A program made the translations under genes and the position numbers. A stretch of DNA of 42,967 bases from a virus (taxonomy: Duplodnaviria; Heunggongvirae; Uroviricota; Caudoviricetes): IMG/VR virus record IMGVR_UViG_2563366803_000007, positions 1-42,967 of that record; one strand, 5' to 3'. Below the pieces are notes generated by a model that saw only the letters and a list, made by a program, of their open reading frames with translations, had not been told where the DNA came from and made no database searches. The first letter of the stretch is position 1; each line of letters starts with the position of its first letter. Shown here in pieces: positions 1 to 42,967 of the stretch.

Positions 1-105
1 ATGATTTACATCGGTCTACCGCAATGGTCGCATCCTAAATGGGTGCGGTTGGGGATCACCAGCCTTGAAGAGTATGCCCGCCACTTTAACTGCGTGACGC
101 GGTAA
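1..105 (+). pseudogene. 5' fragment (34 codons) of a host DUF72-family gene (yecE-like), ending in a stop at the prophage junction
   Basis: ORF MIYIGLPQWSHPKWVRLGITSLEEYARHFNCVTR* is far shorter than the family; everything downstream is phage-like; resemblance to E. coli YecE N-terminus is from memory only. Confidence 0.4.
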
Positions 106-268: not shown

Positions 269-586
269 CTAAACAACCGCATTGTCCTGGCGCACATCGC
301 AGATAGTAAACGTCACTACACCGATGACAGTAACATCGTCCAGGGCCTCGCCCTCGATCGCTTCACCATCTACGGTAATCAGCGACTTTCCTCTCAGCGT
401 AGCAAGTTCAGTGCCGCCGCCGTGCTGGATCAGAACCTGACTACCTTGCTTTGGCTTCAGGGAGATATCCAGCACAACGTAACCACAAGATTGCTCGAAG
501 ACGAGCGTATTTGGACCAACATTGCAGATCGAGTTAACCGTTAATCGCTGTTCCGTGTAGTCCGTCGCGGGTGATGGAAAGCCCAT
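269..586 (-). CDS. UmuD'-like protein (105 aa) beginning at the position of the UmuD cleavage site; no SGDSM-type catalytic motif seen
   Basis: Translation starts MGFPSPATDYTEQR, matching the UmuD/MucA region GFPSPAADYVEQR; C-terminal DDVTVIGVVTFTI resembles the UmuD C-terminal strands; ATG overlaps upstream stop (TAATG) with GGGAGGG RBS. Confidence 0.5.
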   Translation of the reverse strand: MGFPSPATDYTEQRLTVNSICNVGPNTLVFEQSCGYVVLDISLKPKQGSQVLIQHGGGTELATLRGKSLITVDGEAIEGEALDDVTVIGVVTFTICDVRQDNAVV

Positions 587-825
587 TACAGAACCCTCCC
601 CATGTTGGCCATCATCCACAGCCGGTTTTCGCTATGGTCGGTGGTTTTGTCGATGAAATACGTTTGTTCCCGCGCGATCCAGGAGTTCGCCTCAACCTCG
701 GAAAAGTGGATGCCGTGCCGGCGCAGTGCGGTAACGAAGTCTCTGGTATGAAGGTACTGGAATCCCTTGGAGCTGCGCAAAATGGACTCGCGGAAAGCCG
801 CGGCGATGTCTGACTGTCGAAGCAT
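586..825 (-). CDS. Small basic hypothetical protein (79 aa), first gene of a LexA-box-controlled bicistron
   Basis: ATG at 823..825 preceded by GGAGGG RBS; LexA box about 20 bp upstream; stop overlaps start of the UmuD'-like gene. Confidence 0.5.
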   Translation of the reverse strand: MLRQSDIAAAFRESILRSSKGFQYLHTRDFVTALRRHGIHFSEVEANSWIAREQTYFIDKTTDHSENRLWMMANMGRVL

Positions 826-845
826 GACCTGCCCTCCGATAAACA

Positions 846-861
846 CTGTATTTATATACAG
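846..861 (-). promoter_or_regulatory. LexA (SOS) box CTGTATTTATATACAG overlapping the putative promoter of the 586..825 / 269..586 operon
   Basis: Matches CTGT-N8-ACAG; extended sequence ACTGTATTTATATACAGTA is close to the E. coli consensus TACTGTATATATATACAGTA. Confidence 0.6.
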
Positions 862-896
862 TATTGTTTTCGAGAGAACATATCAAGCAGCAGGTG

Positions 897-1658: not shown

Positions 1659-3376
1659 CCTCTCCTTATTACTTGTTCATACATCCAGTTTGCTAAGTGG
1701 GTCTGGAGTGCTGTACCCCAGTGGACGTTAGTATCATTGGCTGGGGTGTCGGCGGTCCTTAAGCTGCGGGGGACGATCCCTAATGAAACATCGGAAATAT
1801 CATCAGCGCTGGCGCTGGCATACTGAAAAGACCATGGCACACAATCCAGTACTAAATCCCCCCACTTGTCCTTCATCCAGACTGAAATTTCGCGCGAAAA
1901 ATTATTAGGCAATGTCCCTGTAACCTCTCCGGTAGCCACAACACCCGGCGTAATTGGACCACCTACTGGAGGAGTGACAAATAAAACTCTCTTTTCTTGC
2001 GTCAGCTGATAGTTATAAATGCGGGTTAATCTGTCTTTCAGATTTGCTACACGCTCAGAATAATTCGCTGATGTCAGGCCTGAAATGTCATTCCTGCCAA
2101 CCCATATCGTCATCAGATTAAAATTGAGGTCAGCAAAATCACGCTCAAAGGGTGAGCCAGGAGCGCAGTATACTGCAGAACCTGATGCTACCCTGGTAAA
2201 GGTAAATGTGCCGCCAGAAACCCTTGCAAATGCGCCATACACACCACATAGCCACCCGTTCATTGTCTGGTAGCCATTACTGGTTAGTGGCTGGCAATCT
2301 ACCAATTGACCGGTAGATGACAATATCTGGCATACTGTGACATTAACGGAGCCCGATGCAGGAATTGAGTTTCCCTCCACGGTTACCTGCGGAGGTTGAG
2401 CGCCAATTCTCGGCGCTATCATGGACGAATTCTGACCGGAAATTGCCTCTAAATTGAAAGTCCTGCCTGGCAAAAGCCCAGCCAGCGTCGTCCTCCATGC
2501 CGTAGCGCCATTTACCGTCCCCACAGATAAAGAGTCCCCAATGATAGTGAAATCTTTTGTAGGTGATATGTATGGAGAGTTTGCTCCGACTGGTTTCCCA
2601 TACGCCTTCAACTGCAGGTTTGCATGATCAAGGACCAGCAATTTTCGGCCTGCACTATCAACCTGCAAAACCTGTTCTGTTTGGTCAGTTGACGCATACT
2701 GGTACTGATCGGAGAATTTAGGTTGCAGAGTTGTATTAAGCGAACCGGAAGAAAGCATTTCAGTCCCGTAGGCTTTTATGACTTTTCCCGCATGATCTGC
2801 AACAATTAATTTTCTCCCTTCGCTATCAATTAATAAAACAGTCTCAGATTCACTATCTAATAATAGTCTTTTAAAATCAGAAAGCGCCTCAAATACATTA
2901 TCATTTGTATTGTATAGCTCTAAAAACACCGAGGAAATAAGTTGCTGCAAATATTCCTGAGACGGCATTTTTCGTCCGGTAGGCTGCAGCGTCCCGCCAA
3001 CGTTCATGACTTCGATTGCAAGCGCGCTGTCGTCCGGGCTGCGGTAATACGTGGTGCTCCCCGCCGGGATATTCGCGATGTCCGCCTGCGCCGCTGCCAG
3101 TGTCATATACTGGCGGCTGAGTGGAATCAGGTTCTGCCTGGTTTCCTCAACTACAGCATCCCTTTCTTCTTGCGATGTTTCAAAGTCTGCTTGCTGCTGC
3201 GTTAGCTGGTTGCCAGCCTTAACATTAACGCCATGCAAAGTATCTAACTGTTCGCCAGTGCGTGTGGTAATGGTTTCATCGCTGCTATTAACGAACTTAT
3301 CAATAGACTGCATATTATCCCATGCATCAAGCATTGATGCAGACGGCACAGGATTGCCGGTATCGTATTCACTCAT
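1652..3376 (-). CDS. Tail fibre/tail spike protein (574 aa) with GDSL/SGNH-hydrolase-like motif
   Basis: Motif TIIGDSLSVGT (GDS-L block) in the central region; position in the tail-fibre cluster; GGGG RBS before ATG. Confidence 0.55.
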   Translation of the reverse strand: MSEYDTGNPVPSASMLDAWDNMQSIDKFVNSSDETITTRTGEQLDTLHGVNVKAGNQLTQQQADFETSQEERDAVVEETRQNLIPLSRQYMTLAAAQADIANIPAGSTTYYRSPDDSALAIEVMNVGGTLQPTGRKMPSQEYLQQLISSVFLELYNTNDNVFEALSDFKRLLLDSESETVLLIDSEGRKLIVADHAGKVIKAYGTEMLSSGSLNTTLQPKFSDQYQYASTDQTEQVLQVDSAGRKLLVLDHANLQLKAYGKPVGANSPYISPTKDFTIIGDSLSVGTVNGATAWRTTLAGLLPGRTFNLEAISGQNSSMIAPRIGAQPPQVTVEGNSIPASGSVNVTVCQILSSTGQLVDCQPLTSNGYQTMNGWLCGVYGAFARVSGGTFTFTRVASGSAVYCAPGSPFERDFADLNFNLMTIWVGRNDISGLTSANYSERVANLKDRLTRIYNYQLTQEKRVLFVTPPVGGPITPGVVATGEVTGTLPNNFSREISVWMKDKWGDLVLDCVPWSFQYASASADDISDVSLGIVPRSLRTADTPANDTNVHWGTALQTHLANWMYEQVIRRGW

Positions 3377-3388
3377 GGTCGCCCCAAT

Positions 3389-3410
3389 AAAAAACCGACC
3401 ATAAGGTCAG
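3389..3410 (-). terminator. Putative rho-independent terminator between the 65-aa gene and the spike gene
   Basis: Minus-strand hairpin CTGACC-TTAT-GGTCGG followed by TTTTTT. Confidence 0.45.
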
Positions 3411-3434
3411 TTTGCTTTCTGGTAATTTAGTGAC

Positions 3435-3632
3435 TTAATTCTTGCTATTTATTTTTGAATATTCTTTATCATCGTAAAATAGCCCGTCTGCCTTGTTATA
3501 AAACATCCCTGGCTGGCAAAATACACTTTCAGGATATTCGATAAGTTCAGCACCATCATATTCATAACCGCTTTCCGCAATTATGATGTTTTTAACTATT
3601 CCACTTTCAATGACTGCGTAATTACCTGCCAT
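3435..3632 (-). CDS. Small acidic hypothetical protein (65 aa), possible fibre assembly factor
   Basis: ORF start overlaps stop of the upstream fibre gene; function unknown. Confidence 0.4.
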   Translation of the reverse strand: MAGNYAVIESGIVKNIIIAESGYEYDGAELIEYPESVFCQPGMFYNKADGLFYDDKEYSKINSKN

Positions 3633-4501
3633 TATGCGTACTCCTCAATGATGACATAGCCGTTAGCGCCCTTCCCTGATGCCCTGGCGATTGAGTCATA
3701 TGATGCGCCAGCACCACCTCCACCAGGGAAAAATCCATCATCACCGGATGAACTAACGTGTGGAAGGCCACCATAACTACTGTGCGATGCGCCACCTACA
3801 CCACCCAGGCTTACACCTGATCCTCCCTGTCCTCCCTGACCAGCCACTGAGAATATTGTCCCAACAGATGGAGCTCCCGGAATTCCGCCAGCAGAATTAC
3901 CAGCAGACTTTCCCCCCTTACCACCGCCAGCAGAGATACCCAACGCGGTAATGGTAGTGTCTCCCCCATCACCGCCATCCCCTGCATTCCCTGCTGCAAC
4001 TGCCGCGCCACCAGCGCCAATAACGATATTCGCCCCATTAATGGTGCTTACGTCATATAATCCCTCAACATATGCACCACCCGCCCCACTAGGTGCACCA
4101 GTCCCTGCGACGTCTGTTCCCTTACCCCCACCGCCTGCACCCCATGCTTTAATTCTGACTTTTTTAGTGCCAGCAGTTTTTACCCATGCTCCGCTAGCGG
4201 TAAAAACCTGAATGCGGAGCAGGCGTCCTTCTGCCTGATTATTAAGTGCGGACTTGAGAATATTTAGTAACGTGGCAATGTTCCCATTATCCAGGACATC
4301 GCTTCCTGTGCTATCCGCCATGAATTGTGCAAGGACGGCAGCAATTGTAGAGGATTGCCGTAGTGCTTTATTTACTTGTGCTGACGAGGCTTTGCCGGAA
4401 AGAAAACCAGATGCCAGTACAGATAGCGCTTCATAATCAGCCTGTGATAATACGTTTGCCCCGCTACCAGTAGCGAAGGGTTTAAAATCGTTAGTCGCCA
4501 T
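3632..4501 (-). CDS. Tail fibre protein with glycine-rich repeat region (289 aa from ATG at 4499..4501)
   Basis: N-terminus MATNDFKPFATGSGANVLSQADYEAL; long Gly-rich GAGGGGKG/GGDGGDGG tracts; TAATG overlap with upstream gene. Confidence 0.55.
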   Translation of the reverse strand: MATNDFKPFATGSGANVLSQADYEALSVLASGFLSGKASSAQVNKALRQSSTIAAVLAQFMADSTGSDVLDNGNIATLLNILKSALNNQAEGRLLRIQVFTASGAWVKTAGTKKVRIKAWGAGGGGKGTDVAGTGAPSGAGGAYVEGLYDVSTINGANIVIGAGGAAVAAGNAGDGGDGGDTTITALGISAGGGKGGKSAGNSAGGIPGAPSVGTIFSVAGQGGQGGSGVSLGGVGGASHSSYGGLPHVSSSGDDGFFPGGGGAGASYDSIARASGKGANGYVIIEEYA

Positions 4502-5274
4502 TAAAATCTCTCTCCCCATGACCCGCGGTCGAAGCCAGCGATATAGTCATTTTCGATATCGAAGCCAAAAAACTGATAACCATCACTGACGGTCTCTATT
4601 TCACGGACACGAACCCCTGCGGCTTTAACCGTCATATAACCGTTCCGAATCGCCCACCATAGCTCGCTGTTAACCTGGTCAATCGGGTTAATGTCATAGC
4701 GCGATGGTACGTAACCTGCCGGTAATGCGATAAAGGGGCCTTTATTGACGGCGCTATCCAGAATTAACCGGTCTATTTCACTTAGAGCTACCGATGGGTC
4801 ACCGAGTATCCAGATAGAAATCGACATATCCTGGTTGTCGACAATAGCCATGCGGATCCCAGACCCGGCAAGGGCGGCATCAAGAATTGAAGGCAGCGAA
4901 TCGTTCTGACCATCCCAGTTGTTTATCGCCACTTTCACCTTCAGCATTAGCCGATATATTTCATCGCTTAGATCGATAAAACCGTCGTTTGGGTCATATG
5001 GTCCCTGCCAGACCCCCTGATCCCAGCCAACCCGTTCGGTGTCCCACGAAAAATAAATCCCGGTTACCGGTGTAGCCACGCGACGGGAACGACCAACCCA
5101 TTCGCCCACAACGTCGAGTTGCACGCCAATGGCGGTATCAATATCAAAATCGGGTATTAGCCGTGACATGGCATCGGAAACATCGCTCAGTGGCCTGGTG
5201 GACAGGTCAACGTGTGCAAAGAACTTTGGTTTACCGGCGTGGTAGTTGGTTATGCGGTCAGTGTATCTGCTCAT
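4501..5274 (-). CDS. Tail/baseplate protein (257 aa)
   Basis: Translationally coupled between baseplate J-like gene and tail fibre. Confidence 0.5.
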   Translation of the reverse strand: MSRYTDRITNYHAGKPKFFAHVDLSTRPLSDVSDAMSRLIPDFDIDTAIGVQLDVVGEWVGRSRRVATPVTGIYFSWDTERVGWDQGVWQGPYDPNDGFIDLSDEIYRLMLKVKVAINNWDGQNDSLPSILDAALAGSGIRMAIVDNQDMSISIWILGDPSVALSEIDRLILDSAVNKGPFIALPAGYVPSRYDINPIDQVNSELWWAIRNGYMTVKAAGVRVREIETVSDGYQFFGFDIENDYIAGFDRGSWGERF

Positions 5275-7543: not shown

Positions 7544-7951
7544 TCAGTATCCATAAATCGTATCAGCTAAGAGGTCGTTTTTATAATTTGATAGCAGCTT
7601 CAAGGCCAGTGCTGTGCTATCACAATCAGCCTCTCCCGTTGCTGCAAAAACTGTCAATTTTACTAACTCTATGGATGTATTAAGCTCATATCCATTCATA
7701 AGCAAAAACACACTCGCGGCCTGAAACGCGGTCCTCTTATTTGCATCATTAAAAGCATGAGATTTCGCTATAGATACCATATACATCGCAGCAAACTTGA
7801 ATAAGTCTTCACACCCTTCATACATACGCAAATTGTGGACTCTGTTAAGGGCGCCCTCCAACTTCCCTCGATCAGGTTCTCCGCTCTTCGGAAGGGTTGT
7901 TTTCTGGATGGTAATTACCTCTTCGACTGAAAGAAATACAATCTCATCCAT
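7544..7951 (-). CDS. doc: Doc/Fic-family toxin (135 aa)
   Basis: Fic motif HAFNDANKRTA; overall similarity to P1 Doc; start overlaps antitoxin stop. Confidence 0.8.
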   Translation of the reverse strand: MDEIVFLSVEEVITIQKTTLPKSGEPDRGKLEGALNRVHNLRMYEGCEDLFKFAAMYMVSIAKSHAFNDANKRTAFQAASVFLLMNGYELNTSIELVKLTVFAATGEADCDSTALALKLLSNYKNDLLADTIYGY

Positions 7952-8364
7952 TATTTATCTTCCAGTTTTTTAATGATATCTGCATGCCGTGTCTGAGTAT
8001 GTTGCAAAGCCTTGATAAACGATTCAGAAACACCCTGAAGAGCAATTGCCGTATTGGCTACCTTCGTTAAAGCTTGGCGAGCCTCATCAGACCTGAGAAG
8101 GTCATCTAATTGCTTAGTAAGCCGCATAATGCCCTCCCGCGTCTGTGGTGATATATTCGATGTAATCAACTGCGCAAGCTGCGTATCCAGTTTCTTGGAT
8201 GTAGGCTTAATTTCCTTAGCTATCAACTGACAATTGTCAGGCTCTCCACGAAGAATGAGATCAGGCTTACCCCGCTGAGTGACAGTTACACTTTCACCAG
8301 AACGCAGCAGCTCTAGCGTTGCAGATAAATCGGTTCTCATTTGTGTGTAAGTAATAGTTTTCAT
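7951..8364 (-). CDS. Phd/YefM-like antitoxin with long helical C-terminal extension (138 aa from ATG at 8362..8364)
   Basis: N-terminus MKTITYTQMRTDLSATLELLRSGESVTVTQRGKPDLIL is Phd/YefM-like; AGAGGGGG RBS; immediately upstream of Doc. Confidence 0.65.
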   Translation of the reverse strand: MKTITYTQMRTDLSATLELLRSGESVTVTQRGKPDLILRGEPDNCQLIAKEIKPTSKKLDTQLAQLITSNISPQTREGIMRLTKQLDDLLRSDEARQALTKVANTAIALQGVSESFIKALQHTQTRHADIIKKLEDK

Positions 8365-8374
8365 TATGCCCCCT

Positions 8375-8388
8375 CTGTACATGTACAG
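8375..8388. promoter_or_regulatory. Perfect 14-bp palindrome CTGTACATGTACAG overlapping the antitoxin RBS (putative TA operator); -35-like TTGACT about 20 bp upstream
   Basis: Palindrome read directly from the sequence; location typical for TA autoregulation. Confidence 0.4.
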
Positions 8389-26626: not shown

Positions 26627-26702
26627 TGGTGCTGGTTAACGGACTTGAACCGCTACCCATTCGCTTACAAGGCGACTGCTCTACCATTGGAGCTAAACCA
26701 GC
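26627..26702 (-). tRNA. tRNA-Thr (anticodon UGU), phage-encoded
   Basis: Manual cloverleaf: 7-bp acceptor stem GCTGGTT/AACCAGC, D stem GCTC/GAGC, anticodon loop CTTGTAA, T loop TTCAAGT, 3' ACCA encoded. Confidence 0.6.
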
Positions 26703-26707
26703 ATATT

Positions 26708-26782
26708 TGGCGGGACAGCGTGGACTCGAACCACGATAAGAAGGTTAACAGCCTTCCGTAATGACCTTTATACGACTGACCC
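26708..26782 (-). tRNA. tRNA-Asn-like (anticodon GUU), possibly degenerate
   Basis: Manual cloverleaf: anticodon stem GAAGG/CCTTC, loop CTGTTAA, T arm CGTGG-TTCGAGT-CCACG, CCA encoded; one mismatch each in acceptor and D stems. Confidence 0.45.
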
Positions 26783-33110: not shown

Positions 33111-33827
<717 letters not shown>

Positions 33828-33939
33828 TCGGCAAGGTGTTCTGGTCGGCGCATAGCTGATAACAATTGAGCAAGAATCTTCATCGAATTAGGGGAATTTT
33901 CACTCCCCTCAGAACATAACATAGTAAATGGATTGAATT

Positions 33940-34779
33940 ATGAAGAATGGTTTTTATGCGACTTACCGCAGCAAAAATAAAGGGAAAGATAAGCGCTCAA
34001 TAAACCTGTCTGTTTTCCTTAATTCTCTGCTGGCTGATAATCATCACCTGCAGGTTGGCTCCAATTATTTGTATATTCATAAAATCGATGGAAAAACTTT
34101 TCTCTTTACCAAAACAAATGACAAGAGTCTGGTTCAGAAGATAAATCGCTCTAAAGCTTCAGTTGAAGATATTAAGAACAGCCTCGCAGATGACGAATCA
34201 TTGGGATTCCCATCTTTTTTGTTTGTTGAAGGCGACACCATTGGTTTTGCCAGAACTGTTTTCGGGCCGACCACATCCGATCTGACAGATTTTTTAATCG
34301 GGAAAGGAATGTCATTAAGCAGTGGAGAGCGCGTTCAGATAGAGCCACTGATGAGGGGAACCACCAAAGACGATGTTATGCATATGCATTTCATCGGCCG
34401 AACAACGGTGAAGGTAGAAGCCAAGCTACCTGTATTTGGCGATATATTAAAGGTCTTAGGGGCAACAGATATTGAAGGGGAGCTTTTTGACTCATTGGAT
34501 ATAGTCATTAAGCCAAAATTTAAAAGGGATATAAAAAAGGTTGCCAAGGATATTATTTTTAACCCGTCACCTCAATTTTCAGACATTAGCCTGCGGGCAA
34601 AAGATGAGGCCGGAGATATTTTAACAGAACATTATCTATCAGAAAAAGGCCATCTCTCAGCGCCTCTGAACAAGGTCACCAATGCTGAGATAGCTGAAGA
34701 GATGGCATATTGCTACGCAAGAATGAAAAGTGATATACTGGAATGTTTTAAAAGGCAGGTGGGCAAAGTTAAGGATTAA
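33940..34779 (+). CDS. rexA: RexA exclusion protein (279 aa)
   Basis: Length and position immediately downstream of cI as in lambda. Confidence 0.85.
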   Translation: MKNGFYATYRSKNKGKDKRSINLSVFLNSLLADNHHLQVGSNYLYIHKIDGKTFLFTKTNDKSLVQKINRSKASVEDIKNSLADDESLGFPSFLFVEGDTIGFARTVFGPTTSDLTDFLIGKGMSLSSGERVQIEPLMRGTTKDDVMHMHFIGRTTVKVEAKLPVFGDILKVLGATDIEGELFDSLDIVIKPKFKRDIKKVAKDIIFNPSPQFSDISLRAKDEAGDILTEHYLSEKGHLSAPLNKVTNAEIAEEMAYCYARMKSDILECFKRQVGKVKD

Positions 34780-34794
34780 TTATCAGGAGTAATT

Positions 34795-35229
34795 ATGCGG
34801 AACAGAATCATGCCTGGTGTTTACATAGTAATAATTCCTTACGTTATCGTAAGCATTTGCTATCTCCTTTTCCGCCACTACATTCCTGGTGTTTCTTTTT
34901 CAGCTCATAGAGATGGTCTTGGGGCGACATTGTCATCATATGCAGGAACCATGATTGCAATCCTGATTGCTGCCTTGACGTTTCTAATCGGAAGCAGAAC
35001 GCGCCGACTGGCCAAGATTAGAGAGTATGGGTATATGACATCGGTAGTTATTGTCTATGCCCTTAGTTTTGTTGAGCTTGGAGCTTTGTTTTTCTGCGGG
35101 TTATTGCTTCTTTCCAGCATAAGCGGCTACATGATACCCACTATCGCCATCGGCATTGCCTCTGCATCGTTCATTCATATATGCATCCTTGTTTTCCAAC
35201 TATATAATTTGACCAGAGAACAAGAATAA
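34795..35229 (+). CDS. rexB: RexB membrane protein (144 aa)
   Basis: Multi-pass hydrophobic protein, length and position as lambda RexB. Confidence 0.85.
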   Translation: MRNRIMPGVYIVIIPYVIVSICYLLFRHYIPGVSFSAHRDGLGATLSSYAGTMIAILIAALTFLIGSRTRRLAKIREYGYMTSVVIVYALSFVELGALFFCGLLLLSSISGYMIPTIAIGIASASFIHICILVFQLYNLTREQE

Positions 35230-41707: not shown

Positions 41708-42967
41708 ATGAGTAAAGAATCATACCCAACGGGCGTTGAGAACCACGGAAAGTCACTCCGCATATGGTTCATTTTTAAAGGTAAGCGTGTCAGGGAAAAC
41801 CTCGGTGTCCCTGACACCGCTAAAAACAGGAAGGTGGCCGGGGAGCTGAGAACGTCAGTTTGTTTCGCTATCCGCATGGGGACCTTTGACTATGCGGCCC
41901 AATTCCCCAACTCGCCAAATCTGAAAACTTTCGGCATCGGGAAGAAAGATATCACCGTAAAAGATCTGTCTGAAAAATGGCTTGAGCTTAAACGGATGGA
42001 GATCTGCGCTAATGCCATAAACAGGTATGAATCGGTGGTGAGAAGCATGCTGCCGAGGGTTGGCGCGAATAAGCTGGTTTCGTCTGTGACAAGAGAAGAG
42101 CTTCTCTATATCAGGAAGGATATGCTGGCGGGGGATAAAGGGTTGAGTGTGGTGACGGTAAACTACTACATGACCACGATCGCGGGTATGTTTCAGTTCG
42201 CTGTTGATAATGGCTATGTGAGTGAAAACCCGTTTAACGGCATCAAGCCGCTAAAGAGGGCCAGGATAGAACCAGATCCGCTCACACGTGATGAATTCGT
42301 TCGCTTCATAGATGCCTGCAAGCATCAGCAAACGAAAAACCTGTGGTCAATTGCGGTATACACAGGATTACGTCACGGTGAGTTGGTATCCCTCGCATGG
42401 GAAGACATAGATCTGAAAACTGGAACGATGACCATACGCCGGAATTATACGAAACTCGGTGATTTCACTCTACCAAAAACCGAAGCCGGTACCGACAGGG
42501 TCGTTCACCTGATCAAGCCAGCCATTGACGCTTTGAGGAACCAGGCGGAAATGACCAGGTTAGGCAGGCAGTATCAGGTTGAGGTACAACTGCGGGAGTA
42601 TGGCCGAACGGTCATTCACGACTGTACATTTGTGTTCAATCCTCAGTTGGTTAAAAAAAGTGGCAGCGTAGGTTACCTGTACAAAGCCGATTCAGTTGGT
42701 GACTCATGGGATGCGGCGCTTAAACGGTCAGGTTTAAGGCACCGCAAGGCGTATCAGTCGAGACACACTTACGCCTGCTGGTCGCTGTCTGCCGGGGCCA
42801 ATCCGAGTTTCATTGCCAGCCAGATGGGACACTCCAGCGCCCAGATGGTTTTCAATGTTTACGGCGCCTGGATGGCCGACAGCAGCAGCGATCAGATTGC
42901 TATGTTGAACCAGAAATTATCGGACTTTGCCCCATCCATGCCCCACGGCATGGCGATAGGAATATGA
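41708..42967 (+). CDS. int: Tyrosine integrase (Rac IntR-like family, 419 aa)
   Basis: C-terminal catalytic region with YTGLRHGE, HTYACWSLSAGANPSFIASQMGHSSAQMVFNVY blocks; strong resemblance to Rac IntR from memory. Confidence 0.9.
   Translation: MSKESYPTGVENHGKSLRIWFIFKGKRVRENLGVPDTAKNRKVAGELRTSVCFAIRMGTFDYAAQFPNSPNLKTFGIGKKDITVKDLSEKWLELKRMEICANAINRYESVVRSMLPRVGANKLVSSVTREELLYIRKDMLAGDKGLSVVTVNYYMTTIAGMFQFAVDNGYVSENPFNGIKPLKRARIEPDPLTRDEFVRFIDACKHQQTKNLWSIAVYTGLRHGELVSLAWEDIDLKTGTMTIRRNYTKLGDFTLPKTEAGTDRVVHLIKPAIDALRNQAEMTRLGRQYQVEVQLREYGRTVIHDCTFVFNPQLVKKSGSVGYLYKADSVGDSWDAALKRSGLRHRKAYQSRHTYACWSLSAGANPSFIASQMGHSSAQMVFNVYGAWMADSSSDQIAMLNQKLSDFAPSMPHGMAIGI

What the first reader, a model, noticed from the sequence alone, without database searches (positions are those of the whole stretch)
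269..861. LexA-box-controlled bicistron at the prophage edge: small protein plus UmuD'-like protein with no umuC partner
A near-consensus SOS box (ACTGTATTTATATACAGTA, 846..861) sits about 20 bp upstream of a 79-aa basic protein whose stop overlaps (TAATG) the start of a 105-aa ORF beginning MGFPSPATDYTEQR. That start corresponds to the Cys24/Gly25 RecA-dependent cleavage site of UmuD, so the gene would make the activated (UmuD') form directly. No SGDSM-type serine motif appears in any frame and no umuC/dinB-like gene follows; only about 160 bp of non-coding DNA separates it from the truncated host gene. The arrangement recalls impC-impA of impCAB operons but is truncated by design, with its own RBS. 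The cassette occupies the tail-fibre-to-att slot where lambdoid phages carry morons. Possible roles are modulating host translesion synthesis or SOS/RecA signalling, or defence or anti-defence.
Basis: partly seen in the sequence, partly recalled or inferred. Interest (0 to 1): 0.75.

Follow-up and report, generated by a model that had tools for sequence, protein, structure and literature searches.

The report
SOS-controlled phage UmuD'-like gene pair
At the edge of an E. coli prophage sits a DNA-damage-inducible two-gene cassette: a shortened relative of phage P1 HumD (a ready-made copy of the UmuD' subunit of the host's error-prone polymerase) preceded by a small, uncharacterised winged-helix protein. 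It is real and widespread in enterobacterial prophages, but it is a variant of a known kind.

Summary
On the minus strand, a near-consensus LexA box (844-863) overlaps a umuDC-type promoter. A 79-aa ORF (825-586) follows, and its stop overlaps (TAATG) the start of a 105-aa ORF (586-269) beginning MGFPSPATDY, the residue after the UmuD cleavage site.

A profile of the 105-aa family aligns with UmuD' over its whole length (E 7.5e-11). The AlphaFold model matches UmuD' (TM 0.64). An 11-residue deletion removes the Ser60 loop, and Lys97 is replaced.

No UmuC homologue lies in the window or within 3 kb of 80 related loci.

The idea is not new. P1 HumD and N15 gp26 are LexA-controlled, pre-truncated UmuD' homologues without umuC, and phages HK140 and mEp390 carry the same bicistron in the same slot. 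PHROGs already lists both families (3469, 3893).

Two things are undescribed in the literature I could search: the short catalytic-loop-deleted subfamily, and the small partner. The partner is modelled with high confidence (pLDDT 91) as a winged-helix-like fold. It is not DinI/ImpC-like.

Both genes are under purifying selection (dN/dS about 0.11).

Most likely function: an SOS-induced UmuD' surrogate acting on host UmuC/RecA*. This is inferred, not shown.

The parts
844..863 (-). LexA (SOS) operator. Reads TACTGTATATAAATACAGTG on the coding strand, 18/20 to consensus.
   Evidence: A box at the same position (mostly 18 nt before the ATG) occurs in about 70 of 80 IMG/VR loci and in HK140, mEp390, RothC, Midgardsormr38, phiES15, Kp4856-1 and Kp4882-3.
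858..886 (-). Inferred sigma-70 promoter: -35 TTGATA (886-881), 17-nt spacer, -10 TACTGT (863-858) inside the LexA box.
   Evidence: Read from the sequence. The layout matches the E. coli K-12 umuDC promoter/operator and the homologous phage cassettes. The simple promoter scan missed it because the -10 is weak. Not tested experimentally.
586..825 (-). Gene for the 79-aa small protein (phrog_3893), modelled as winged-helix-like. RBS GGAGGG at 836-831. Its last codons carry the RBS of the next gene.
   Evidence: E 4.4e-40. AlphaFold pLDDT 90.9, topology H-b-H-H-b-b. Foldseek gives only weak winged-helix hits. dN/dS 0.12.
269..586 (-). Gene for the 105-aa short HumD/UmuD'-like protein (phrog_3469). 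Start overlaps the upstream stop (TAATG).
   Evidence: phrog_3469 E 2.7e-46. NCBIfam HumD E 1.3e-10, below cut-off. Family profile vs PDB UmuD' E 7.5e-11 over residues 25-138. AlphaFold pLDDT 78, and Foldseek top hits are UmuD' at TM 0.64-0.65. dN/dS 0.11.
1..96 (+). 5' fragment of host gene yecE, interrupted by the prophage. The attL junction lies between about 96 and 268.
   Evidence: The 1-kb query that includes this fragment matches 5423 of 5426 E. coli genomes. PGAP annotates a partial CDS next to yecD.

Best explanation
This is an SOS-inducible accessory ('moron') cassette of a lambda-like prophage integrated in yecE.

Proposed sequence of events:
1. In the lysogen, host LexA binds the operator that overlaps the -10 of a umuDC-type promoter and keeps the cassette off.
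2. DNA damage leads to LexA cleavage and transcription of a translationally coupled bicistron.
3. The second product is a HumD-like, 'pre-cleaved' UmuD' surrogate. It has the flexible N-terminal arm (GFPSPAxDY) and the S24 beta-core. It lacks the propeptide and the Ser60 loop, and Lys97 is replaced, so it neither needs nor can perform RecA*-mediated self-cleavage.
4. By analogy with P1 HumD, it would dimerise and engage host UmuC and/or RecA* filaments. That would give Pol V-type lesion bypass, or modulate it, without the delay of UmuD processing. This would help replication of damaged phage or host DNA.
5. The first product is a small winged-helix-like protein. It is an optional accessory, present in about two thirds of such cassettes, and its role (regulator or adaptor) is unknown.

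Shown here: the gene structure, the homology and fold, the conserved operator, the absence of umuC, and purifying selection.

Inferred: LexA control in vivo, interaction with UmuC/RecA*, and any effect on mutagenesis.
For: - Homology to UmuD'/HumD across the full length, and a UmuD'-like predicted fold.
- The family (190 clusters at 50% identity) consists of proteins of about 105 aa, and the full-length members aligned all start at MGFPSP.
- The LexA box is unique in the window and conserved in position across genera.
- The promoter layout matches E. coli umuDC.
- P7 humD has an annotated LexA site and no umuC. N15 gp26 has the same arrangement.
- HK140 carries a bona fide HumD-family protein (NF051876, E 2e-66) behind the same small gene.
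- No UmuC lies in the window or in 80 species-level loci within 3 kb.
- The host species has umuDC.
- dN/dS is about 0.11 for both genes.
- P1 HumD is reported as a functional UmuD' homologue that facilitates SOS mutagenesis (McLenigan et al. 1999, title cited; details from my own knowledge).
Against: - The short subfamily scores far below the HumD model cut-off (41 vs 120 bits).
- It has lost an 11-residue loop, and its conserved ITxDGEAIEGE motif is absent from UmuD. Binding to UmuC or RecA* may therefore not be retained.
- No experiment on this subfamily was found.
- The role of the small protein is not explained by the HumD model. HumD and N15 gp26 work without it.
Confidence: 0.5

Rival explanations
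1. SOS/Pol V damper. The short UmuD'-like protein would act as a decoy. It would heterodimerise with host UmuD/UmuD', or occupy UmuC or RecA* filaments without forming an active polymerase. That would limit mutagenesis, recombination or RecA* co-protease activity during induction.
For: Only the N-terminal arm and the C-terminal strands are strongly conserved with UmuD'. The body is remodelled, with an 11-aa deletion and a new conserved ITxDGEAIEGE motif. In HK140 and mEp390 the cassette shares its operator region with a divergent DinI-like gene, a known RecA* modulator. 12 of 80 genome loci also have a DinI homologue nearby.
Against: The closest characterised relative, P1 HumD, is reported to promote mutagenesis rather than block it (title). 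Nothing in the sequence distinguishes a decoy from an active subunit.
Confidence: 0.25
2. Two-chain regulator. The winged-helix protein (DNA-binding module) and the UmuD'-like protein (S24 dimerisation module) would associate into a LexA/UmuDAb-like DNA-binding complex split at the position of the cleavage site. It would regulate phage or host genes late in SOS.
For: The small protein has a winged-helix-like topology at high confidence. LexA-type repressors are a winged helix followed by an S24 domain, and the second gene starts exactly at the post-cleavage residue. The two genes are translationally coupled and co-occur in 77 of 80 IMG/VR loci. Small partners that bind S24-fold regulators are known, namely DdrR-UmuDAb and GIL01 gp7-LexA (reference titles).
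Against: hhalign shows no relationship to the LexA N-terminal domain (probability 0.07). The small protein is not consistently basic (net -2 to +5). The partners are freely swapped: 33% vs 90% identity and 80% vs 35% identity in different pairs. One third of short UmuD'-like genes lack the small gene. No complex prediction could be run.
Confidence: 0.1
3. Anti-phage defence or anti-defence cargo, unrelated to translesion synthesis.
For: The cassette sits in the moron slot next to tail fibres. The prophage carries other accessory systems, RexAB and Phd/Doc.
Against: PADLOC gives no hit for either protein. Homology points specifically to UmuD'/HumD. The cassette is wired to LexA through a umuDC-type promoter.
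Confidence: 0.08
4. Non-functional remnant of a disrupted umuDC or impCAB operon.
For: The promoter/operator resembles umuDC. The catalytic residues are lost.
Against: dN/dS is about 0.11 for both genes. The length is fixed (about 105 aa) across 190 clusters at 50% identity and many genera. No UmuC fragment is found in the window or in 80 loci. The ribosome-binding sites and start/stop overlap are conserved.
Confidence: 0.03

Closest known systems
Bacteriophage P1/P7 HumD (NCBIfam NF051876, HumD family) and N15 gp26
   Same: Phage-borne. Starts at the Gly that follows the UmuD cleavage site (MGFPSPA.DY). Has a LexA box just upstream and no umuC partner. S24/UmuD' fold.
   Different: HumD is 129 aa, keeps the Ser60-region loop and Lys97, and is monocistronic. 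The window protein is 105 aa with an 11-residue deletion of that loop and Lys97 replaced by Ala. It has about 27% identity to HumD, scores below the family cut-off (41 vs 120 bits), and is preceded by a small gene.
HK140 gp27-gp28 and the mEp390 UmuD-like cassette (Hendrixvirinae); Klebsiella phages such as RothC
   Same: Same bicistron (small protein plus UmuD'-like, overlapping stop/start). Same LexA box position. Same slot between tail fibre and attP.
   Different: The HK140 second gene is the long HumD type. HK140 and mEp390 add a divergent dinI-like gene that the window lacks. Small proteins are about 52% identical to the window protein.
E. coli UmuD/UmuD' (Pol V accessory subunit; PDB 1UMU, 1AY9, 1I4V, 8GMT)
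   Same: Homologous over UmuD residues 25-138, with the same fold. The promoter/operator layout resembles umuDC.
   Different: No 24-residue propeptide, no Ser60/Lys97 dyad, no adjacent umuC. Encoded by a prophage.
impCAB / DinI-ImpC
   Same: A small gene precedes a UmuD-like gene under LexA control.
   Different: The small protein shows no DinI similarity. Its predicted topology is H-b-H-H-b-b winged-helix-like, not DinI-like. There is no impB/umuC.
Acinetobacter UmuDAb-DdrR and phage GIL01 gp7-LexA
   Same: A small protein is functionally paired with an S24-fold protein in the DNA-damage response (reference titles).
   Different: No sequence relationship was tested or found. UmuDAb carries its own DNA-binding domain and still self-cleaves. 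This is an analogy only.

Membership tests
HumD family (phage UmuD' homologues, NF051876) | Protein begins at the residue equivalent to UmuD Gly25, with no cleavable propeptide | tested here: met
   MGFPSPATDY aligns to UmuD 25-34.
HumD family (phage UmuD' homologues, NF051876) | Scores above the curated NCBIfam cut-off (120 bits) | tested here: not met
   41.3 bits, E 1.3e-10. HK140 and P7 proteins score about 220 bits.
HumD family (phage UmuD' homologues, NF051876) | LexA operator upstream and no cognate umuC | tested here: met
   A LexA site is annotated for P7 humD.
HumD family (phage UmuD' homologues, NF051876) | Dimerises, binds UmuC and RecA*, and complements UmuD' in mutagenesis | not testable with these tools
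   Needs biochemistry or genetics.
UmuD / Peptidase S24 self-cleaving proteins | S24 beta-fold | tested here: met
   AlphaFold model pLDDT 78. Foldseek top hits are UmuD', LexA C-terminal domain and lambda CI C-terminal domain, TM up to 0.65.
UmuD / Peptidase S24 self-cleaving proteins | Ser-Lys catalytic dyad (UmuD Ser60, Lys97) and a cleavage-site segment | tested here: not met
   An 11-residue deletion removes the Ser60 loop, and Lys97 aligns to Ala. Pfam Peptidase_S24 does not hit.
impCAB-type operon | DinI-like ImpC, plus a UmuD-like ImpA, plus a Y-family polymerase ImpB | tested here: not met
   No DinI or UmuC homologue in the window. The fold of the small protein is winged-helix-like.
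LexA (SOS) regulon member | High-quality CTGT-N8-ACAG operator overlapping the promoter | tested here: met
   18/20 to consensus, none expected by chance, conserved in homologous loci.
LexA (SOS) regulon member | LexA binding and damage-inducible transcription | not testable with these tools
   Needs EMSA or a reporter assay.
Winged-helix DNA-binding proteins (small protein) | H1-b-H2-H3-b-b topology | tested here: met
   AlphaFold pLDDT 90.9, pTM 0.81.
Winged-helix DNA-binding proteins (small protein) | Significant structural or sequence match to a characterised winged-helix family, and DNA binding | tested here: inconclusive
   Best PDB Foldseek E-values are 0.07 or weaker, TM 0.45-0.57, mostly winged-helix proteins. 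There are no Pfam or NCBIfam hits, and hhalign vs LexA gives nothing. Net charge is variable.
PHROG 3469 (UmuD-like) and PHROG 3893 (unknown) | Full-length HMM match | tested here: met
   E 2.7e-46 (residues 1-103 of 106 profile positions) and E 4.4e-40 (1-79 of 79).

The most novel reading that the evidence does not exclude
The small winged-helix protein and the catalytically dead UmuD'-like protein would form a two-chain LexA-like DNA-binding complex, a repressor 'split' at the cleavage site. Alternatively, the small protein would be a dedicated adaptor that clamps the invariant GFPSPAxDY arm. Either way, the phage would gain a previously unrecognised way to rewire the host SOS/Pol V pathway.
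Probability: 0.1. Interest if true: 0.75.

Novelty: new variant of a known kind. Interest (0 to 1): 0.38.

Why it matters
Prophage-borne, LexA-wired UmuD' surrogates could change how fast and how strongly lysogens become mutagenic after DNA damage, including damage from quinolone antibiotics. The cassette is common in Klebsiella prophages and present in about 2-4% of complete E. coli genomes. The short subfamily shows which parts of UmuD' stay conserved once self-cleavage is dispensable: the N-terminal arm and the C-terminal strands. That is a useful natural experiment for Pol V assembly. The conserved small partner is an uncharacterised protein family with a testable link to the SOS response. 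The concept itself (HumD) has been known since 1999, so this extends a known kind rather than founding a new one.

Tried and rejected
- **Small protein as DinI/ImpC homologue.** Rejected. tblastn with a phage DinI finds nothing, and the predicted topology is winged-helix-like.
- **Small protein as homologue of the LexA N-terminal domain.** hhalign probability 0.07. Rejected at the sequence level.
- **Pfam hits of the small protein.** BrnT_toxin E 0.016. WVELL and DUF7669 hit in 10-11 of 32 members at weak E-values. All are below cut-offs and uninformative.
- **Defence system.** PADLOC gives no hits.
- **Remnant of umuDC.** Rejected by dN/dS, by the fixed length, and by the absence of UmuC in 80 loci.
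- **Natural fusion of the two proteins (Rosetta stone).** The long candidates P0305, P0152 and P0253 look like frameshift artefacts.
- **Literature.** Searches found no study of this bicistron or of the small protein.
- **Locus search.** The first related-loci run with the 40-sequence alignment failed for lack of a conserved stretch. It worked with a trimmed alignment.

Full report
**1. What is in the sequence**

The window is a complete lambda-like prophage of E. coli, inserted in yecE.
- Bases 1-96 are the 5' end of yecE, and yecD lies upstream in related genomes.
- The integrase is at 41708-42967.
- CI is a full HTH_3 plus Peptidase_S24 repressor, followed by RexA and RexB.
- The tail genes are those of a contractile-tail phage.

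The finding lies at the tail-fibre end, on the minus strand.
- A 79-aa ORF runs 825..586 (MLRQSDIAAAF...).
- A 105-aa ORF runs 586..269 (MGFPSPATDYTEQR...).
- The two share the A of TAATG.
- Each has a GGAGG-type ribosome-binding site. The second site lies inside the last codons of the first gene.
- CTGTATTTATATACAG (846-861) is the only CTGT-N8-ACAG in the window.
- The 20-mer at 844-863 has 2 mismatches to the LexA consensus. No match within 3 mismatches appeared in 100 shuffles.
- The box ends 18 nt before the ATG. It overlaps a putative -10 (TACTGT) set 17 nt after TTGATA.
- This layout parallels the E. coli K-12 umuDC promoter/operator and the homologous phage cassettes.

**2. The 105-aa protein**

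It is a real UmuD' relative, not just an N-terminal motif.
- It matches phrog_3469 'UmuD-like protein' (E 2.7e-46).
- It matches the NCBIfam HumD model over residues 1-101 (E 1.3e-10), but at 41 bits against a cut-off of 120.
- An exhaustive search of 1.84 billion cluster representatives found 190 relatives. Most are about 100-110 aa, and the full-length members I aligned all begin MGFPSP.
- A profile of 40 members aligns with UmuD' (8GMT, 1UMU) across UmuD residues 25-138 at E about 1e-10.
- The AlphaFold model (pLDDT 78, arm disordered, core 80-91) retrieves UmuD', the LexA C-terminal domain and the lambda CI C-terminal domain as top PDB hits. TM to UmuD' is 0.64-0.65.
- Relative to UmuD, an 11-residue segment that includes Ser60 is deleted, and Lys97 aligns to Ala. 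The protein therefore cannot self-cleave, and has no propeptide to remove.
- The family-specific conserved features are the invariant arm and an ITxDGEAIEGE..D.V.V.GVV block.

**3. The 79-aa protein**

- It matches phrog_3893, function unknown (E 4.4e-40).
- It has no significant Pfam, NCBIfam, PADLOC or PDB sequence match.
- With a 32-sequence alignment, AlphaFold gives a confident model (pLDDT 90.9, pTM 0.81). The topology is H-b-H-H-b-b, that is, winged-helix-like.
- Foldseek finds only weak matches, mostly winged-helix proteins such as F93, FOXO, Fur, MarR and PadR. The only strong hit is its own HK-phage relative.
- It is not DinI/ImpC-like. hhalign shows no relationship to the LexA N-terminal domain.
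- Two subfamilies exist, ending ...NMGRV and ...NPNGG. In both, the end encodes the downstream Shine-Dalgarno sequence.
- Net charge varies from -2 to +5.
- PGAP labels the second subfamily 'DNA polymerase V', although no NCBIfam model hits it. The name therefore seems to rest on the neighbouring gene.

**4. Distribution and linkage**

The same bicistron, with a LexA box and in the slot between tail fibre and att, occurs in these phages:
- HK140, whose second gene is a bona fide HumD-family protein (E 2e-66)
- mEp390
- Klebsiella phages such as RothC
- Erwinia phage Midgardsormr38
- Cronobacter phage phiES15

In 80 IMG/VR loci found with the small protein:
- 77 have the UmuD'-like gene at the same 1-nt overlap.
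- About 70 have the box, mostly 18 nt before the ATG.

In 80 species-level genomes of Enterobacteriaceae and Erwiniaceae found with the UmuD'-like protein:
- 51 have the small gene directly upstream.
- Most of the rest have the LexA box 35-46 nt before the UmuD'-like ATG, as in P1/P7 humD and N15 gp26.
- None has a UmuC homologue within 3 kb.
- 12 have a DinI homologue nearby.

Other observations:
- The window itself has no UmuC or DinI homologue.
- Partner swapping is frequent. Examples are small 33% / UmuD'-like 90% identity, and small 80% / UmuD'-like 35%.
- Both genes are under purifying selection, with median dN/dS of 0.12 and 0.11.
- In complete E. coli genomes the cassette is uncommon: 218 of 5426 have any match and 92 have a nearly full one. 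It is much more frequent in Klebsiella.

**5. Mechanism**

The best-supported reading is the HumD paradigm.
- LexA represses a umuDC-type promoter.
- Upon SOS induction the prophage supplies a UmuD' surrogate that needs no RecA*-mediated processing.
- This surrogate would act on host UmuC and/or RecA*. E. coli has umuDC.
- P1 HumD has been reported as a functional UmuD' homologue that facilitates SOS mutagenesis. The title is cited.

Whether the short, loop-deleted subfamily activates or instead titrates UmuC/RecA* cannot be decided from sequence.

The small protein is an optional accessory. A regulator or adaptor role is inferred only from its fold and its tight translational coupling.

**6. 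Comparison and novelty**

It corresponds, however, to a known kind (P1 HumD, N15 gp26, HK-phage 'UmuD-like protein').

The impC analogy fails. No support was found for a defence role.

Two things appear undescribed in the literature I could search:
- The short subfamily, which fails the HumD model cut-off and lacks the catalytic loop.
- The conserved winged-helix-like partner.

I rate it a new variant of a known kind, of moderate-to-low interest. A low-probability but interesting reading remains, in which the two proteins form a split LexA-like complex or an arm-binding adaptor pair.

Noticed in passing
window 7544-8382 (minus strand): A Phd/YefM antitoxin (7951-8382) and a Fic/Doc toxin (7544-7951) sit inside the baseplate/tail gene module. 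In P1/P7, humD lies directly next to phd-doc.
   Followed up: partly
window 33114-35229: A lambda-type CI (HTH_3 plus complete Peptidase_S24) is followed by RexA and RexB homologues (E 1e-97 and 8.5e-92). The prophage therefore has a RecA*-cleavable repressor and an Abi system.
   Followed up: partly
window 26627-26782 (minus strand): Two phage-borne tRNA genes, tRNA-Thr(TGT) and tRNA-Asn(GTT), lie in the late regulatory region.
   Followed up: no
P0391 and relatives; L087 2501-2743: PGAP, UniRef and a phage record name the NPNGG-type 79-aa winged-helix protein 'DNA polymerase V'. No NCBIfam model hits it, so the name seems to come from its neighbour and is misleading.
   Followed up: partly
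L006 (mEp390) 2262-2501: The small ORF is not annotated in the mEp390 record. A 129-nt opposite-strand ORF is annotated instead.
   Followed up: no
P0126, P0203 (Klebsiella/Raoultella): In these variants the small protein is fused in frame to C-terminal fragments of a serine invertase (HTH_7/Resolvase). The UmuD'-like gene was apparently deleted next to a tail-fibre invertase gene.
   Followed up: no
P0284 (141 aa, metagenome/genome representative): A UmuD-type propeptide (FIRPAELREI...SMQC|GF) is joined to a short-type, loop-deleted body. This looks like a recombinant between a umuD gene and a phage short gene across the conserved GFPSPAADY arm.
   Followed up: no
about 10 of the IMG/VR loci L007-L086, 70 nt upstream of the small gene: The LexA box and promoter are replaced by an unrelated GC-rich sequence (…GGGTATCCCTACCGCGACATTTATCGGAGGG…). 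These copies are probably expressed by read-through rather than under SOS control.
   Followed up: partly
alignment A6 (L005, L004, L003, L006, L090, L087, L088): HumD-type and short-type phage proteins share an acidic C-terminal tail ending P(V/A)I. UmuD lacks it, and so does the window protein, which ends ...QDNAVV. Its function is unknown.
   Followed up: no
L002 (RothC) 2918-3964: In some Klebsiella phages a 348-aa glycine-rich-domain protein (Gly_rich_2) lies 12 nt downstream of the UmuD'-like gene. The window has a related Gly_rich_2 protein elsewhere, at 3632-4519.
   Followed up: partly
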